From Candidatus Woesearchaeota archaeon (GTDB lineage: Archaea; Nanobdellota; Nanobdellia; Pacearchaeales; GW2011-AR1): 64,000 bases of DNA. The position numbers were made by a program, and so were the translations under genes. The DNA lies in NCBI GenBank assembly GCA_964576755.1, contig CAZNUV010000002.1, forward strand, positions 9,052-73,051. Direction: 5' to 3'. Positions within the stretch are counted from its first letter, which is position 1; the number at the start of each line of letters is the position of its first letter. The notes below the pieces were generated by a model. The model saw only the letters and a program-made list of their open reading frames with translations, searched no databases and was not told the origin of the DNA. Positions 22,719 to 27,939 of this stretch are shown here, piece by piece.

Positions 22719-25412
22719 ATGAGAAAAATAGGTGTGCTGATTTTAATCTTATTAGTTAGTATTTTTATAATTAATTTTACTAATACCGTTATTGCAAGTA
22801 TAGAAGTACATAATTATACTTTACAAAGAGAATATTTGCCTTATGAGTTAATTAAAGGAGAAATCAACCTAACTATCTCTCAAGAAAGTTTTGATTTAGA
22901 TTTAACATGCAATATAGAAAATAAAAAAATCTCTTTAATTAAATTTTTGGAAAAAAATTCTGTAGATTATGATTGTTTTCCAAATGATTGTGAATCAGGA
23001 TATATTTCTAGTGGTTCTGGAAAGACAAGCAAGATTATAGATTTAGTTAAAGGAGAAGAAAAATTCTTAGGTTTTGTTTTAAATGGAGAAAAAGTTGAAG
23101 TACAAGATTTAAGTTTTAAAATCAAGTCAAATTTTGGAGTGGGAACAGAACTTCCTCTAAAAATAGGCTTTTTTAATTCCTCATTTTATAAATTTATGAT
23201 TACTTCTGGAAAATTCTTTCCTTCTAAAAATTATGGTTGTTATGACCGTTTAACAAATATAGTTTATGCTTATGTTTCTACAGACCCTTATTGCGAAAAG
23301 ATTTATGTTGCAGAAACACCGGCACTTCAATTAGGAGCAATTTTAACAGGAACAGGTTCTGAAAAAGTTTCTATGAAAATATATGATAAGAGTTCTAATG
23401 AGATAGATAGATGTGAGTTCCTTCCTTCAGAAACAGATTCTTGTGTAGTAGACAATGGAAAAGAAGGATTTTCTTCTGGAGAATATTATGTGTGTATTGA
23501 TGCTAAAAATCCTACAAATTATAAGATAGGGACTGAGACTTCTAATGATAATTGTGGTTGGGTAGATGTACCTATTCAAGGAAAAAGCAATATTGACTTT
23601 GCAATCTTCACTCGGAGAGCAGAATATTCTGCAGCAATACCTGTTTCAATAAATATTACTGATACCCCTGAATTAAAAAATCTTGCTGATGAGGCAAATG
23701 ATTATATTAAAAAGAAATATAATGGAAACTGTTCTGAAGATTGTATCTTATTTTTAACTTTTAGTGGCATAAATCAAGAATTAGAAGTTTATGATATTGA
23801 TTTAAAATATAAAAAAGGAGTTGTTATTTCTGAAGATGAAATATATAATGTTGAAAAAAAACTAGTATTAGTTGATTTTTCAGGAGTTTTAAATTTAAGT
23901 TTAACAGGTTTTAATTTTTCTACTTCTGGGAAAGAGGACTTAACATTAAAAGTAGGTAATAATGAATTAATAGAAGAAGGAATTGAAGTTATTAATGCTC
24001 CAATGATTGGAGACCTTTATCCTTTAAATCCTGCAGCAGGTATCCCTGTTAGATTCACTCTAGAAACTAATTCTAGTAAGGGTATTGTTTCTTATTTGTG
24101 GAACTTTGGGGATGGAACTTCTTCTAAAACAGAAAACAATTCTGTTATCCATACTTATACTACTTTAGAAACTTATACTATTACAGTTACTGTACAAGAT
24201 AAGAACAATATTACTAATTCAAAAGATTTTGTAATTATTGCAGGTTCTCCTAAGGATGCCCTTAATTGGACTTTTGCAAGGAAAAAGAGTGAACTTGATT
24301 CAATCAAACAAGAGATTGCAAAGTTTTCTTTAACTTATCAAAATATTTTAAATAAAAAATTAAAAATACTAGAATATGAAGATGAAATTAAAAAATTAGA
24401 AAAAAAATTAGAGATTGCTACATTTGATACAGATTATTTAGAAATTGCTAATGGGTTACAATCCATAAAATTGCCTGTAGCATTAGTTACTGAAACATTT
24501 CAAATGCCTTTTTATACAGATTTATATGATGTAAATTTAGCACCTGTTCAGTTTATTGGTGGGGGGAATTATGAAGCAGAAGCAATAGAAGAATATCAAA
24601 ATGCAATTTTGCTATGGCAGAGAGAAAATGTGAAGGTATTACTTAATATTAAACGAGTTTATGCGGTTGGTTTAGATATGAGTCAGGATTTATTGGTTAC
24701 TATATATGATGTTTCTGTTTCTTCAAGTTCTGGTGATGAGAGTTATGTTGTTATTTCTAAGTTGTATGAAGAATTGGAGTTTTCAGGAGATGTTTCTGCA
24801 AGGGGGGCCGAAGGGGCTACAGTTATAATTTTAAATCCTGAAGAAGATAAAAGTTTTCAATTTTATTTTGAAGATGATGATGAACCAGCAATTTTTGTTT
24901 CTCCAAAACTTTCAAAATTAGATATTGTTGCAAATATTGGAATCTGTAATTTTAACAAGGTTTGTGAAAAGGATAGTGGCGAAGATTACAAAAATTGTCG
25001 TAGTGATTGTAAACCTGTTTTTAGAACAATAATTTGGATTATTTTTATTCTGATTTTTGGGATTGTGATATATGCCTTTTTACAAGTGTGGTATAAGACT
25101 AGATATGAAAAGTTTTTATTTGATGATAGAAGAAAATTGTATAATCTAGTAATGTTTATTCTTAATGCAAGAGAAAGAGGTTTGGGTAATTCTATAATAA
25201 GAAGTCAATTAAAAAAACAAGGGTGGCCTGGTGAGAAAATAGAATATGCAATAAACAAGGCTGATGGAAAAAGAACTGGAATGTATGAGATTATCCCAAT
25301 TGATCAAGTTATATTGCAGTTTAGAAAGTTTAAAATTAAACAAAACATTAATAAAGATAAAAACAAACAAATGAATACAATTACAATGAATGAACAAAGA
25401 TTAACAAGATAA
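22719..25412 (+). CDS. Large exported surface protein E (PKD domain, coiled coil, C-terminal TM plus ~110-aa cytoplasmic tail)
   Basis: 897 aa. Signal peptide. Canonical PKD signature YLWNFGDGTSS...HTYTTLETYTITVTVQD. TM FRTIIWIIFILIFGIVIYAFLQVWY. Tail ...ARERGLGNSIIRSQLKKQGWPGEKIEYAINKA. Confidence 0.7.
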   Translation: MRKIGVLILILLVSIFIINFTNTVIASIEVHNYTLQREYLPYELIKGEINLTISQESFDLDLTCNIENKKISLIKFLEKNSVDYDCFPNDCESGYISSGSGKTSKIIDLVKGEEKFLGFVLNGEKVEVQDLSFKIKSNFGVGTELPLKIGFFNSSFYKFMITSGKFFPSKNYGCYDRLTNIVYAYVSTDPYCEKIYVAETPALQLGAILTGTGSEKVSMKIYDKSSNEIDRCEFLPSETDSCVVDNGKEGFSSGEYYVCIDAKNPTNYKIGTETSNDNCGWVDVPIQGKSNIDFAIFTRRAEYSAAIPVSINITDTPELKNLADEANDYIKKKYNGNCSEDCILFLTFSGINQELEVYDIDLKYKKGVVISEDEIYNVEKKLVLVDFSGVLNLSLTGFNFSTSGKEDLTLKVGNNELIEEGIEVINAPMIGDLYPLNPAAGIPVRFTLETNSSKGIVSYLWNFGDGTSSKTENNSVIHTYTTLETYTITVTVQDKNNITNSKDFVIIAGSPKDALNWTFARKKSELDSIKQEIAKFSLTYQNILNKKLKILEYEDEIKKLEKKLEIATFDTDYLEIANGLQSIKLPVALVTETFQMPFYTDLYDVNLAPVQFIGGGNYEAEAIEEYQNAILLWQRENVKVLLNIKRVYAVGLDMSQDLLVTIYDVSVSSSSGDESYVVISKLYEELEFSGDVSARGAEGATVIILNPEEDKSFQFYFEDDDEPAIFVSPKLSKLDIVANIGICNFNKVCEKDSGEDYKNCRSDCKPVFRTIIWIIFILIFGIVIYAFLQVWYKTRYEKFLFDDRRKLYNLVMFILNARERGLGNSIIRSQLKKQGWPGEKIEYAINKADGKRTGMYEIIPIDQVILQFRKFKIKQNINKDKNKQMNTITMNEQRLTR

Positions 25413-26056
25413 TGGTAATAAAAATAATCAAGAATTTTGGAAAGAGACTTTTTGCTAAGATATTTGGAAAAAAAGGAGAAATTAAGCTTGGTTTTTATGG
25501 CCCTCCAAATGCGGGGAAAACAAGTTTAGCTAATAAAATTTGTCAAGATTTTTTAGGAGAAGATTTAGGCAGTGTTTCTAAAATGCCTCATGAAACGAGG
25601 GAGATTCAATTTAAGGAAAAAGTTGAAATTGAAAAAGGTGGGAAAAAATTAGAATTTAAGTTAATTGATACTCCTGGAATTGCAACAAAAATAGATTATG
25701 AAGACTTCCTTAAGTTTGGGATAAAGAAAAATGAGGCCCAGAAAAGAGCTAAAGAGGCTACTCAGGGAGTTATTGAGTCTATTAAATGGTTGGACGATAT
25801 GGATGCAGTTGTTATTGTTCTTGATTCAAGTAAAAATCCTTATTCTCAAGTAAATATTACTATTGTCGGAAATCTTGTTTCTAGAAAAATACCTGTCCTT
25901 ATTGTTGCAAATAAAATCGATTTAAAAAAGTCAAATATCAAGAAAGTGGAATCTGCATTTCCAGAATATGACGTTGTTGGAATTTCTGCTAAGAATGGAA
26001 AAAATATAGAAGATTTTTATGAAAGTCTATTTAAATTAGTCAAAAAAGTTAAATAA
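25412..26056 (+). CDS. Small TRAFAC-class GTPase
   Basis: 214 aa. G1 GPPNAGKT, G3 DTPG, G4 NKID, G5 SAK. The ATG overlaps the stop of protein E (TAATG). Confidence 0.75.
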   Translation: MVIKIIKNFGKRLFAKIFGKKGEIKLGFYGPPNAGKTSLANKICQDFLGEDLGSVSKMPHETREIQFKEKVEIEKGGKKLEFKLIDTPGIATKIDYEDFLKFGIKKNEAQKRAKEATQGVIESIKWLDDMDAVVIVLDSSKNPYSQVNITIVGNLVSRKIPVLIVANKIDLKKSNIKKVESAFPEYDVVGISAKNGKNIEDFYESLFKLVKKVK

Positions 26057-26103
26057 AAAAAAGTTTAAATAATCTAAAACAGTTTAATATAAATAAAAAA
26101 GAG

Positions 26104-27473: not shown

Positions 27474-27549
27474 TTTTCCCAGACATTCTTATGCAAACTT
27501 TTATTAATCTTTATTATCTTAAAATATCAGAGGAGTAATAAACTAAAAG

Positions 27550-27939
27550 ATGCCACACCAATGTGTACACTGCGGAAAAATTATTGAAGCAGGAAGTAAA
27601 GAAATTTTAGAAGGCTGTGATAAATGTAAGGGCAGATTTTTCTTTTATATTAAAGATGAACAAGTTCCAAAGATAGAAGAAAATAAGATTGAAATCGAAT
27701 TTACAGAGCCAGATAAAAGGCAAGTAGAACAAGATGTGAGAAATATTCTTGGAATTGAAGATGAGACAAAACCAGTTATTCTTGATTTAGAATCTGTAAG
27801 AGTTTTAAAACCTGGAAAGTTTGAAATTGATGTTGTTAGTCTTCTTAATAGAAAACCAATTGTATTCAAGCTAGAAGAAGGAAAATATATAATTGATTTA
27901 GAATCTGCACTACCACACTATCAAAAAGATAAGGATTAG
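27550..27939 (+). CDS. Zn-ribbon protein, DUF2072-like (function unknown)
   Basis: 129 aa. N-terminal CVHCGKIIEAGSKEILEGCDKCKGRFFFY. Confidence 0.5.
   Translation: MPHQCVHCGKIIEAGSKEILEGCDKCKGRFFFYIKDEQVPKIEENKIEIEFTEPDKRQVEQDVRNILGIEDETKPVILDLESVRVLKPGKFEIDVVSLLNRKPIVFKLEEGKYIIDLESALPHYQKDKD

What the first reader, a model, noticed from the sequence alone, without database searches (positions are those of the whole stretch)
25412..27939. Uncharacterised archaeal GTPase / DUF2073-like / Zn-ribbon module wired into a surface-protein and pilin operon
What the sequence shows:
- The 897-aa PKD surface protein ends TAATG directly into a small TRAFAC GTPase (GPPNAGKT, DTPG, NKID, SAK).
- Next comes a 142-aa protein carrying ILQGRLKIEEEAKLIENTM, which I recall as the DUF2073 hallmark.
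- After one intervening gene comes a 129-aa N-terminal zinc ribbon (CVHCG...GCDKCKGRFF, DUF2072-like).

From memory, these three families form a conserved neighbourhood of unknown function in many Euryarchaeota.

In this window the triad differs in two ways. It is translationally coupled to a giant exported protein. It is also interrupted by a textbook archaeal type IV pilin gene (26559-27473).

That context suggests a nucleotide-switch module acting on cell-surface or pilus assembly, conceptually like MglA/MglB control of bacterial T4P. I know of no description of such a role.
Basis: partly seen in the sequence, partly recalled or inferred. Interest (0 to 1): 0.7.

Follow-up and report, generated by a model that had tools for sequence, protein, structure and literature searches.

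The report
Known archaeal division-positioning GTPase operon
These genes are a DPANN archaeon's copy of a recently characterised three-protein GTPase system (named Oap, Arv, Dip or Arco) that tells archaeal cells where to divide; the pilin gene inside it is a local insertion, but the large membrane-protein gene in front of it is a conserved neighbour that the papers I read do not mention.

Summary
The triad is no longer uncharacterised.

- **Families:** Pfam now calls DUF2073 and DUF2072 "OapB" and "OapC". The GTPase and its two partners are OapABC = ArvABC (Mills 2024, extracellular vesicles) = DipABC/ArcoABC (two 2026 preprints).
- **Known function:** In Haloferax volcanii this is a Min-like, membrane-binding GTPase oscillator that positions the FtsZ ring.
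- **Fit of the window proteins:** G1 and G3 motifs lie one residue from the HVO_3014 positions. There is an N-terminal amphipathic helix and a 129-aa Zn-ribbon DipC. ftsZ lies 12 kb away. Pacearchaeales genomes are already in the published ArvA census.
- **Pilin:** It sits in a hypervariable dipB–dipC slot. A homologue is there in 1 of 69 related species, so the pilus-switch idea is not supported.
- **Upstream protein:** The adjacency is strongly conserved (74 of 80 species; 8 of 8 reverse look-ups). It is a type-I membrane protein whose most conserved part is a cytoplasmic three-helix tail. Background synteny is high, and dipA usually has its own promoter.

Verdict: a new member of a known system, with one modest new lead.

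The parts
20971..22659 (+). Secreted PKD-containing protein ('PKD2', 562 aa from the ATG at 20971; the ORF listing extends it to a TTG at 20920). A variable second large surface protein upstream of the membrane protein.
   Evidence: Weak PKD_4 hit. Gene callers give 562 aa. A homologue holds the same position in 21 of 54 relatives. A different large secreted protein (PKD, NHL or MopE; 767-1156 aa) sits there in L084, L085, L089, L091 and L092 and in the P0161 contig, for which no DNA was returned.
22719..25412 (+). 897-aa type-I membrane protein: signal/anchor helix (residues 2-21), beta-rich ectodomain with a PKD domain, helical bundle plus membrane-proximal beta domain, TM helix, conserved cytoplasmic tail. 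Conserved upstream neighbour of dipA.
   Evidence: Topology and conservation profile. AlphaFold model, pLDDT 86.8. Directly upstream of dipA in 74 of 80 species representatives. 8 of 8 family members looked up are followed by dipA.
24030..24227 (+). PKD domain of the 897-aa protein (residues 438-503)
   Evidence: PF00801 5e-13. Foldseek TM 0.85 to collagenase PKD domains. PDB profile hits cover this region only.
25017..25082 (+). C-terminal transmembrane helix of the 897-aa protein (about residues 767-788; the helix continues to residue 800 in the model)
   Evidence: Hydropathy peak at 770-788, score 2.88. Helix 767-800 in the model.
25083..25334 (+). Conserved cytoplasmic tail (residues 789-872): WYK..YE..LF juxtamembrane helix, three-helix bundle (804-848) and GKRTGMxEIP loop. 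No Pfam family.
   Evidence: Most conserved part of the protein: 42% identity against 24-32% elsewhere. Invariant W791, Y792, F801, N809, L831, W836, E839. No Pfam match. 883 clusters in 1.84 billion representatives, essentially one architecture. Tail model core pLDDT 92-98. No significant structural neighbour; best is the PEX14 N-terminal domain at E about 1.
25348..25355 (+). TATA-like box TTAATAAA inside the 3' end of the 897-aa ORF, 64 nt before the dipA ATG. Counterpart of the dipA promoter box that relatives carry 29 nt before the ATG.
   Evidence: The box lies exactly 29 nt upstream in 34 loci and 28-31 nt upstream in 44 of 80. 65 of 80 have a box at 20-75 nt, against 9% background. Window sequence read.
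25410..25414 (+). TAATG stop/start overlap between the 897-aa ORF and dipA
   Evidence: Read directly. The stop-to-ATG distance in relatives ranges from -29 to +366 nt.
25412..26056 (+). dipA / arcoA / arvA / oapA: membrane-binding small GTPase (214 aa). N-terminal amphipathic helix (residues 2-19, 25415-25468); G1 at residues 30-37 (25499-25522).
   Evidence: MMR_HSR1 4e-16. G motifs. Highest hydrophobic moment in the protein at residues 3-13; net charge +5 over residues 2-19. 76-91% identical to more than 100 DPANN clusters. HVO_3014 has the same GPPNAGKT and DTPG motifs at 31-38 and 87-90.
26104..26532 (+). dipB / arcoB / arvB / oapB (142 aa; DUF2073). In H. volcanii a SepF-like regulator that displaces DipA from the membrane.
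   Evidence: PF09846 8.9e-16. Present directly downstream in 73 of 73 relatives. Published function.
26559..27473 (+). Archaeal type IV pilin-like protein (304 aa) inserted in the variable dipB-dipC slot. Not part of the conserved system.
   Evidence: Pilin_N and TIGR02537 hits. Only ORF in the window with this strict N-terminal motif. A homologue is in the slot in 1 of 69 relatives. A non-alignable pilin-like gene is in the slot in the closest relative, L093.
27550..27939 (+). dipC / arcoC / arvC / oapC (129 aa): N-terminal Zn ribbon (Cys 5, 8, 23, 26; 27562-27627), variable middle, conserved C-terminal segment. In H. volcanii the FtsZ1 antagonist carried by DipA.
   Evidence: PF09845 4e-24. 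Cys positions. Conservation 0.65-0.69 (N-terminus), 0.46 (middle), 0.68-0.75 (C-terminus). Non-haloarchaeal DipC averages 131.5 +/- 19.6 aa.
27974..29206 (+). Archaeal CCA-adding enzyme. A syntenic neighbour only, used as the background-synteny control.
   Evidence: tRNA_NucTransf2 1e-24 and TIGR03671 1.7e-62. Retained after dipC in 44 of 58 relatives.
40155..41228 (-). ftsZ, the presumed target of the Dip system, 12 kb downstream
   Evidence: Tubulin 3.5e-45 and FtsZ_C 3e-32. Tubulin signature GGGTGTG.

Best explanation
The GTPase, DUF2073 and Zn-ribbon genes are this Pacearchaeales (DPANN) archaeon's orthologues of OapABC = ArvABC = DipABC = ArcoABC.

By homology to Haloferax volcanii the system would work like this:
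1. GTP-bound DipA binds the membrane through its N-terminal amphipathic helix.
2. SepF-like DipB stimulates GTP hydrolysis and releases DipA from the membrane.
3. Zn-ribbon DipC travels with DipA and blocks FtsZ polymerisation wherever DipA dwells.
4. The Z ring therefore forms where DipC is scarce. This is analogous to MinD/MinE/MinC but not homologous to it.

The pilin gene is a lineage-specific insertion into a dipB-dipC spacer that accepts unrelated genes in different species. The 897-aa gene upstream is a conserved neighbour in this order and may be a lineage-specific partner.

Shown here: family membership, architecture and synteny. Inferred, not shown: GTPase cycling, oscillation and FtsZ inhibition in this organism.
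For: **Family hits.** PF09846 (OapB) and PF09845 (OapC) score far above their thresholds.

**DipA features.**
- G1 GPPNAGKT lies at residues 30-37 and G3 DTPG at 86-89. HVO_3014 has them at 31-38 and 87-90.
- The strongest amphipathic 11-mer in the protein is at residues 3-13. Residues 2-19 carry net charge +5. This matches the published membrane-targeting sequence.

**DipC features.** It is 129 aa with four N-terminal Cys. The ends are conserved and the middle is variable. That is the architecture described for non-haloarchaeal DipC, which averages 131.5 +/- 19.6 aa.

**Gene order.** A-B-(one gene)-C fits the published variation. ArvC lies within two genes downstream in 78% of genomes, and the dipC distance varies among species.

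**FtsZ.** ftsZ is in the same window. The system is reported only in FtsZ-using archaea.

**Published census.** The ArvA census lists 163 Pacearchaeales genomes. One is MFWN01 (ArvA gene 1815, ArvB gene 1816). Its GTPase is locus L029, 75% identical to the window protein.

**Experiments in H. volcanii.** Deletion gives minicells and mislocalised Z rings. The proteins oscillate pole to pole. DipB displaces DipA from the membrane. ArcoC inhibits FtsZ1.
Against: - No experiment exists for any DPANN member.
- The Arco authors themselves point out that DPANN cells are sub-micron. Whether pole-to-pole oscillation is possible there is open.
- The same genes were first tied to extracellular-vesicle production. 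The primary role may therefore differ by lineage.
- The two divisome papers are preprints.
- I could not compare directly with the HVO_3014 sequence. I had only its published motif positions and the census link.
- I did not test DipB's SepF-like fold. A sequence profile against PDB found no SepF, which is uninformative.
- I did not determine whether the window's FtsZ is the FtsZ1 type.
Confidence: 0.8

Rival explanations
1. Vesicle reading (ArvABC). In this organism the GTPase mainly drives membrane budding and extracellular-vesicle release in an Arf/Sar1-like manner, with ArvB as activator and ArvC as brake. The conserved type-I membrane protein would be cargo or a budding-site receptor recruited through its cytoplasmic tail.
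For: In H. volcanii:
- OapA knockout reduced EVs 2.9-fold and overexpression raised them 3.5-fold.
- ArvB knockout reduced EVs 3.1-fold and ArvC knockout raised them 1.65-fold.
- ArvA was enriched in EVs.

DPANN lineages form a well-supported ArvA clade. In this order a membrane protein with a conserved cytoplasmic docking-type tail sits next to the GTPase.
Against: - Two independent 2026 studies show that the same deletions produce minicells and mislocalised FtsZ, and that the proteins oscillate. Part of the 'vesicle' phenotype may be a division by-product; that is my inference.
- ArvB and ArvC were not detected in EVs.
- There are no vesicle data for DPANN.
- This reading is not mutually exclusive with the best explanation.
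Confidence: 0.2
2. First reader's reading. The triad is a nucleotide switch (MglA/MglB-like) that controls type IV pilus or cell-surface assembly, as suggested by the embedded pilin and the coupled surface protein.
For: - The pilin gene lies inside the module.
- The closest relative, L093, also has a pilin-like gene in the slot. L030, L018 and L031 have pilin-like or giant surface proteins there.
- A T4P ATPase and two platform genes lie at 264-4098 in the window.
- H. volcanii dipA and dipC deletions are non-motile.
Against: - A pilin homologue occupies the slot in 1 of 69 species representatives.
- 25 loci have dipB and dipC adjacent. In the other 36 loci the slot holds unrelated genes: Zn-ribbon proteins, VapBC-like pairs, transposase-like genes, a deaminase-like gene and small membrane proteins.
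- DipB and DipC match only OapB and OapC, with no Roadblock/longin family.
- The motility defect in H. volcanii concerns archaella. The authors attribute it to MinD4 mislocalisation or cell shape.
Confidence: 0.05
3. Pure synteny. The 897-aa protein has no functional link to DipABC. The adjacency persists because these genomes are broadly syntenic and because the dipA promoter is physically embedded in the 3' end of the upstream gene, which makes separation costly.
For: - Unrelated neighbours are also well retained: CCA 76%, TrmB 62%, SPP 59%.
- A TATA-like box sits exactly 29 nt before the dipA ATG in 34 loci, often inside the upstream ORF, where it is translated as NINK or RFIKRP. dipA is therefore probably transcribed on its own.
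- The mirror-tree test was uninformative.
- Haloarchaea have no such neighbour; oriC1 and orc1 lie next to dipA there.
Against: - Retention (92%) exceeds that of the true partner dipC (82%) and of every unrelated neighbour.
- The adjacency survives where downstream synteny has decayed (L085, L089, L090, L092).
- It holds in 8 of 8 look-ups that started from the membrane protein.
- It spans at least two Pacearchaeales families.
- The ectodomain has diverged to 25-40% identity, yet the cytoplasmic tail is the most constrained region.
Confidence: 0.45

Closest known systems
DipABC / ArcoABC of Haloferax volcanii (HVO_3014, HVO_3013, HVO_3012; also OapABC and ArvABC)
   Same: - Same three families in the same order.
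- Same G1 and G3 motifs, one residue off in position.
- N-terminal amphipathic helix on the GTPase.
- DUF2073 partner directly downstream.
- Zn-ribbon partner with conserved ends.
- Co-occurrence with FtsZ.
   Different: - DipC is short (129 aa against 330 aa), lacking the long disordered linker of haloarchaeal DipC.
- One pilin gene is inserted between dipB and dipC.
- No Orc1/Cdc6 was found among the window's ORFs of 300 aa or more, so there is no sign of the origin-adjacent context.
- A conserved 897-aa membrane-protein gene lies upstream where haloarchaea have oriC1.
- The host cell is presumably sub-micron, so oscillation geometry is uncertain.
Bacterial MinCDE
   Same: Works alike, according to the preprints. 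A membrane-binding NTPase with an amphipathic helix (MinD or DipA), an activator that releases it (MinE or DipB), and a passenger that inhibits FtsZ (MinC or DipC).
   Different: There is no homology. DipA is a TRAFAC small GTPase, not a ParA/MinD ATPase. DipB is SepF-like. DipC is a Zn-ribbon protein.
MglA/MglB polarity switch of Myxococcus
   Same: A small Ras-superfamily GTPase with a dedicated regulator that sets up spatial asymmetry in a prokaryote.
   Different: - MglB is a Roadblock/LC7 GAP, and neither DipB nor DipC matches that family.
- MglA is cytosolic and lacks the N-terminal membrane helix.
- The output in the studied Dip system is FtsZ placement, not pilus polarity.
Eukaryotic Arf/Sar1 and SR-beta GTPases
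   Same: An N-terminal amphipathic or membrane-anchoring extension on a small GTPase. ArvA's best HHpred Pfam hit was the Arf family. ArcoA was placed as sister to SR-beta.
   Different: There are no Sec7/ArfGAP-type regulators and no coat proteins. In the window protein Pfam scores MMR_HSR1 highest. Arf reaches only 21.0 bits, below its 22.3-bit cut-off.
PEX14 N-terminal domain (for the cytoplasmic tail only)
   Same: A small three-helix bundle held at a membrane, with similar size and topology (TM 0.58-0.64 over 48 residues).
   Different: The match is not significant (E about 1). There is no sequence-level relationship and no evidence of peptide-motif binding.

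Membership tests
DipABC / ArcoABC (= OapABC / ArvABC) | A: small GTPase with Walker A GPPNAGKT and Walker B DTPG near residues 31-38 and 87-90 | tested here: met
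   GPPNAGKT 30-37, DTPG 86-89, NKID 167-170, SAK 192-194.
DipABC / ArcoABC (= OapABC / ArvABC) | A: N-terminal amphipathic membrane-targeting helix | tested here: met
   Residues 3-13 (IKIIKNFGKRL) have the highest 11-residue helical hydrophobic moment in the protein (0.80). Residues 2-19 have net charge +5. The 18-mer moment is 0.51 against a shuffle mean of 0.28, p = 0.06. This is sequence-based only; membrane binding was not tested.
DipABC / ArcoABC (= OapABC / ArvABC) | B: DUF2073/OapB-family protein encoded directly downstream of A | tested here: met
   PF09846 8.9e-16, 58.2 bits against a cut-off of 27. The gene is 47 nt downstream. Present in 73 of 73 relatives.
DipABC / ArcoABC (= OapABC / ArvABC) | B: SepF-like fold | tested here: inconclusive
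   A profile of 24 DipB sequences found no SepF among PDB sequences (best E 0.16, to unrelated proteins). The published similarity is at the fold level.
DipABC / ArcoABC (= OapABC / ArvABC) | C: DUF2072/OapC protein with N-terminal Zn ribbon, variable centre and conserved C-terminus; about 130 aa outside haloarchaea | tested here: met
   PF09845 4e-24. Cys 5, 8, 23, 26. Conservation 0.65-0.69, 0.46 and 0.68-0.75 along the protein. 129 aa against the published 131.5 +/- 19.6.
DipABC / ArcoABC (= OapABC / ArvABC) | Gene order A-B-C with C at most a few genes away | tested here: met
   One intervening gene. Published: ArvC lies within two genes downstream in 78% of genomes. dipC is called a 'loner' only with more than three intervening genes.
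DipABC / ArcoABC (= OapABC / ArvABC) | Occurs in archaea that divide with FtsZ | tested here: met
   ftsZ at 40155-41228(-), Tubulin 3.5e-45 and FtsZ_C 3e-32. FtsZ1 versus FtsZ2 type was not determined.
DipABC / ArcoABC (= OapABC / ArvABC) | Falls within the published ArvA homologue set or clade | tested here: met
   L029 (contig MFWN01000078, GTPase 75% identical) comes from GCA_001786395. That genome is listed in Mills et al. Datasets S10 and S11 with ArvA gene 1815 and ArvB gene 1816. I did not build my own phylogeny.
DipABC / ArcoABC (= OapABC / ArvABC) | Pole-to-pole oscillation, DipB-stimulated GTPase and membrane release, FtsZ1 inhibition by C | not testable with these tools
   Biochemical and cell-biological properties, shown only for H. 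volcanii and A. fulgidus proteins.
OapABC in the original 'origin-associated' sense | Located next to the main replication origin and orc1/cdc6 | tested here: not met
   No Orc1/Cdc6 family hit in any ORF of 300 aa or more in the 64-kb window. This is a contextual trait of haloarchaea, not a requirement for Dip function.
Archaeal type IV pilin (the inserted gene) | Class III signal peptide followed by a hydrophobic N-terminal helix (Pilin_N / TIGR02537) | tested here: met
   TIGR02537 28.5 bits against a cut-off of 20. Pilin_N 25.4 against 25.2. Motif KKA|ISPVVATILMVLITIAAV.
MglA/MglB-type polarity switch | Partner protein with a Roadblock/LC7 (longin-like) GAP domain | tested here: not met
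   The 142-aa and 129-aa proteins match only OapB and OapC in Pfam at E <= 0.01, and nothing in NCBIfam.

The most novel reading that the evidence does not exclude
In Pacearchaeales the Dip/Arco system is really a four-part module. The conserved ~890-aa type-I membrane protein would use its cytoplasmic three-helix tail to dock DipA, for example through DipA's N-terminal amphipathic helix, or to dock DipB or DipC. It would act as a fixed membrane landmark or anchor that couples the cell envelope or host-contact surface to division-site (or budding-site) selection. Such a landmark would address how a Min-like system can work in sub-micron cells that may be too small to oscillate.
Probability: 0.3. 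Interest if true: 0.6.

Novelty: new member of a known kind. Interest (0 to 1): 0.33.

Why it matters
The triad itself needs no new explanation. It should be annotated as DipABC/ArcoABC (OapABC/ArvABC), not as a DUF cluster or a pilus regulator.

The useful by-product is a specific lead for the people now studying this system. In a whole DPANN order, dipA is preceded by a fast-evolving surface protein. Its most conserved part is a small cytoplasmic domain found in no other architecture. If that tail binds a Dip protein, it would show how a Min-like system is adapted to very small, possibly host-attached cells.

The survey also shows that dipA carries a sharply positioned, leaderless-type promoter that is often buried in the upstream coding sequence. 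This matters for operon calls and for reading C-terminal 'motifs' in such genomes.

Tried and rejected
- **Sigma-70 promoter and intrinsic-terminator scan.** It found fewer promoter-like sites than in shuffled sequence. The model does not apply to archaea, so I ignored it.
- **Full-length Foldseek of the 897-aa model.** It returned only generic multi-beta-sandwich chains (TM <= 0.12) plus the PKD domain. It gave no functional lead for the ectodomain.
- **Tail against PDB by sequence profile and by fold.** Nothing was significant. I keep the PEX14 N-terminal resemblance (E about 1) only as a weak lead.
- **Pfam on the tail and two ectodomain pieces at E <= 1.** No hits.
- **DipB profile against PDB sequences to test SepF-likeness.** No SepF hit, which is uninformative.
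- **Mirror-tree / partial Mantel test for tail co-evolution with DipA or DipB, with CCA as control.** All pairs were positive. That included the extracellular domain against cytoplasmic DipB (0.54), which exceeds tail against DipB (0.40). Residual phylogeny dominates, so I rejected the test as evidence.
- **Flanking repeats around the window's module.** Only weak AT-rich or paralogous matches turned up. There is no sign that the pilin or the module is a mobile insertion here.
- **An idea I dropped.** I first thought an ATG lies 29 nt after the window's TATA box, forming a leaderless mini-ORF. On re-reading the sequence, the in-frame ATGs are at 25371 and 25386, which is +23 and +38 from the box.
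- **Wider DPANN orders.** I could not reach Woesearchaeales or others. DipA is so conserved that every capped search was filled with close relatives.

Full report
**1. Observation.** The ORF map matches the finding exactly.
- The 897-aa ORF (22719-25412, +) carries a PKD domain (PF00801, 5e-13).
- Its TAA stop overlaps the ATG of the next gene, giving TAATG at 25410-25414.
- The next gene (25412-26056) encodes a 214-aa GTPase. It has GPPNAGKT at residues 30-37, DTPG 86-89, NKID 167-170 and SAK 192-194. It matches MMR_HSR1 at 4e-16.
- The 142-aa protein (26104-26532) matches PF09846 at 8.9e-16.
- The 129-aa protein (27550-27939) matches PF09845 at 4e-24 and has Cys at 5, 8, 23 and 26.
- The gene between them (26559-27473) has an archaeal pilin N-terminus, KKA|ISPVVATILMVLITIAAV. 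It scores TIGR02537 8e-7 and Pilin_N just above threshold.

**2. What the triad is.** Pfam now names PF09846 and PF09845 'Origin-associated protein OapB' and 'OapC'. A literature search shows the triad has been studied under four names.
- *ArvABC.* Mills et al. 2024 (PMC10927574) renamed H. volcanii OapA (HVO_3014) as ArvA, an 'archaeal vesiculating GTPase'.
  - Knockout lowered extracellular vesicles 2.9-fold. Overexpression raised them 3.5-fold.
  - ArvB (DUF2073) knockout lowered them 3.1-fold. ArvC (DUF2072) knockout raised them 1.65-fold.
  - They found 1,666 homologues in 14 phyla, including 7 DPANN phyla.
  - ArvB lies directly downstream in 93% of genomes. ArvC lies within two genes downstream in 78%.
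- *DipABC / ArcoABC.* Two 2026 preprints reinterpret the same operon as a Min-like oscillator that positions the divisome. They are He et al., 10.64898/2026.05.19.726155, and 10.64898/2026.07.23.738820.
  - The GTPase binds membrane through an N-terminal amphipathic helix.
  - The SepF-like B protein displaces it from the membrane.
  - The Zn-ribbon C protein rides on A and antagonises FtsZ1.
  - Deletions give minicells and scattered Z rings.

**3. Membership of the window genes.**
- HVO_3014's Walker A (GPPNAGKT, 31-38) and Walker B (DTPG, 87-90) are the same motifs, one residue offset from the window protein.
- The window GTPase's strongest amphipathic 11-mer is at residues 3-13, in a +5 segment.
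- DipC is 129 aa. Its N- and C-terminal parts are conserved and its centre is variable. The published non-haloarchaeal mean is 131.5 +/- 19.6 aa.
- ftsZ lies at 40155-41228(-).
- The GTPase is 76-91% identical to over 100 metagenomic clusters labelled Pacearchaeota or Nanoarchaeota.
- One species representative, L029 (contig MFWN01000078, 75% identical), belongs to GCA_001786395. Mills et al. list that genome under Pacearchaeales with ArvA as gene 1815 and ArvB as gene 1816.
- L008 and L021 map to the same family, GW2011-AR1. L011 maps to a second family, PEVX01.

The triad is therefore an ordinary member of a known family in a lineage already covered by a published census. I did not test DipB's SepF-like fold, and a sequence search against PDB was uninformative. 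No Orc1/Cdc6 was found among ORFs of 300 aa or more in the window. The haloarchaeal origin-adjacent context is therefore not seen here.

**4. The pilin.** I fetched 80 species-representative loci around DipA homologues and surveyed them with phmmer.
- dipB and dipC are adjacent (<150 bp) in 25 loci and separated in 36.
- In the separated loci the slot content is heterogeneous:
  - about 200-aa Zn-ribbon proteins (three loci);
  - VapBC-like pairs;
  - transposase-like genes;
  - a deaminase-like gene;
  - small membrane proteins;
  - two giant (1,892 and 2,010 aa) surface proteins with pilin-like N-termini;
  - one pilin homologue (L030).
- A homologue of the window pilin sits in the expected position in 1 of 69 loci.
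- The two closest relatives I could find also have something in the slot. L093 (DipA 85% identical) has a 317-aa pilin-like gene that does not align with the window pilin beyond the N-terminus. L094 (83%) has a 493-aa signal-anchored protein.

The slot is an insertion hot-spot, and the pilin is a recent, local occupant. The pilus-switch hypothesis rests on this one adjacency and is not supported.

**5. The upstream membrane protein.** This adjacency is conserved, which I did not expect.
- *Forward direction.* A homologue lies directly upstream of dipA on the same strand in 74 of 80 loci.
  - One of the six misses has only 221 bp of upstream sequence.
  - Two more have the protein 4-7 kb upstream.
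- *Reverse direction.* Starting from eight divergent family members (24-32% identity to the window protein), all eight are followed immediately by the DipA-type GTPase. A Pfam OapB gene lies downstream in seven of the eight. In L084 the next ORF has no Pfam hit and the contig ends. This holds in contigs whose downstream context differs.
- *Topology.* The protein is type I. It has an N-terminal signal/anchor helix, a beta-rich ectodomain with one PKD domain and many conserved cysteines, a helical bundle and a membrane-proximal beta domain. A TM helix (about 767-800) and a roughly 100-residue cytoplasmic tail follow (model pLDDT 86.8).
- *Tail conservation.* The tail is the most conserved region: 42% identity against 24-32% elsewhere. 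Invariant residues are W791, Y792, F801, N809, L831, W836 and E839.
- *Tail fold and distribution.* It folds as a three-helix bundle plus a GKRTGMxEIP loop (core pLDDT 92-98). It has no Pfam family and no significant structural neighbour. The best is the PEX14 N-terminal domain at E about 1. It occurs in 883 representative clusters, essentially always at the C-terminus of a roughly 870-950-aa protein.

**6. Cautions on that adjacency.**
- Background synteny in this group is high. CCA-adding enzyme is retained at 76%, TrmB at 62% and signal-peptide peptidase at 59%. The membrane protein is at 92% and dipC at 82%.
- dipA normally has its own promoter.
  - A TATA-like octamer starts exactly 29 nt before the ATG in 34 loci and 28-31 nt before it in 44 of 80.
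  - 65 of 80 have a box within 20-75 nt, against 9% of random windows.
  - Where the upstream ORF runs through this box, it is translated as the recurrent C-terminal 'NINK' or 'RFIKRP' motifs. Those motifs are therefore DNA-level conservation.
- In the window the box (TTAATAAA, 25348-25355) is 64 nt upstream, with none at -29. The last ~27 residues of the 897-aa protein are poorly conserved. The TAATG overlap is thus atypical, and I cannot tell whether this species relies on read-through.
- A mirror-tree test could not separate co-evolution from phylogeny.

I put the functional-partner reading at about 0.3. Neither preprint, nor the main text of Mills et al., mentions an upstream conserved gene in the parts I searched.

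**7. Verdict.** The finding is a correct piece of sequence reading whose 'unknown function' premise has been overtaken by the literature. The module is DipABC/ArcoABC (OapABC/ArvABC). Its most likely role is FtsZ placement by a membrane GTPase cycle, inferred by homology. The pilin is incidental. The one new element is the conserved upstream type-I membrane protein with a distinctive cytoplasmic tail, which is worth a multimer prediction and an order-wide census.

Noticed in passing
window 25348-25355; loci L001-L080, 20-35 nt upstream of dipA: dipA has a sharply positioned TATA-like box whose 5' end lies exactly 29 nt before the ATG in 34 of 80 sequences. That implies a leaderless transcript. 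The box is often inside the upstream ORF, where it is translated as C-terminal 'NINK' or 'RFIKRP' motifs, so an apparent peptide motif is really a promoter.
   Followed up: partly
L088 (whole contig) and L087:2143-2206 / 9109-9172: A 6,946-bp MEGAHIT contig has an exact 141-bp terminal overlap, so it assembled as a 6.8-kb circle. The circle contains exactly [260-aa ORF]-[904-aa membrane protein]-dipA-x-dipB-x-dipC. In another sample the same block is flanked by direct repeats of at least 64 bp with a hairpin unit (GCTCGCATTCCAATCCTGTTCGTTTGGAATGCTC). This is either a repeat-induced assembly cycle or real excision or duplication of the whole module.
   Followed up: partly
window 264-4098 and 5327-6637: Type IV pilus/archaellum-type assembly genes: a T2SSE ATPase (264-1790) and two T2SSF platform proteins (2004-3260, 3262-4098). 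A HerA/DUF87-like ATPase follows at 5327-6637. They lie 21 kb upstream of the lone pilin gene.
   Followed up: no
window 39558-40049 (-): A 163-aa ORF immediately downstream of ftsZ has no Pfam match. Its position makes it a candidate division-associated protein.
   Followed up: no
window 19271-20293 and 20971-22659: The 340-aa protein and the 562-aa PKD2 protein share paralogous C-terminal segments (direct repeats D2 and D8, 71-75% DNA identity). Together with p299, p190 and the 897-aa protein they form a cluster of fast-evolving exported proteins.
   Followed up: no
L018:5103-11135 and L031:9090-14768: Two related species carry homologous giant (2,010 and 1,892 aa, 35% identical) surface proteins with pilin-like N-termini in the dipB-dipC slot.
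   Followed up: partly
L001:1850-2473, L023:8784-9377, L077:1356-1952: The same ~200-aa Cys-rich Zn-ribbon protein family (MRVIKCLFCGR... / ...CQRKHYNRRPE...) recurs in the dipB-dipC slot of three species. Its function is unknown.
   Followed up: no
window 12523-13950 (-) and 15255-15746 (-); L085, L089, L090 and the P0161 contig: RtcB, with Archease where visible (window, L085, L090), recurs a few kb upstream of the module in divergent contigs, though on the opposite strand in the window. This is further evidence of long-range synteny in the order.
   Followed up: no
window 41330-42676, 45621-47075, 50123-51430, 51481-52899: The window carries GatA-like amidase, GatB and GatD genes, plus a second GatB_N-domain (GatE-like) gene. 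Both tRNA-dependent amidotransferase systems therefore appear to be encoded.
   Followed up: no
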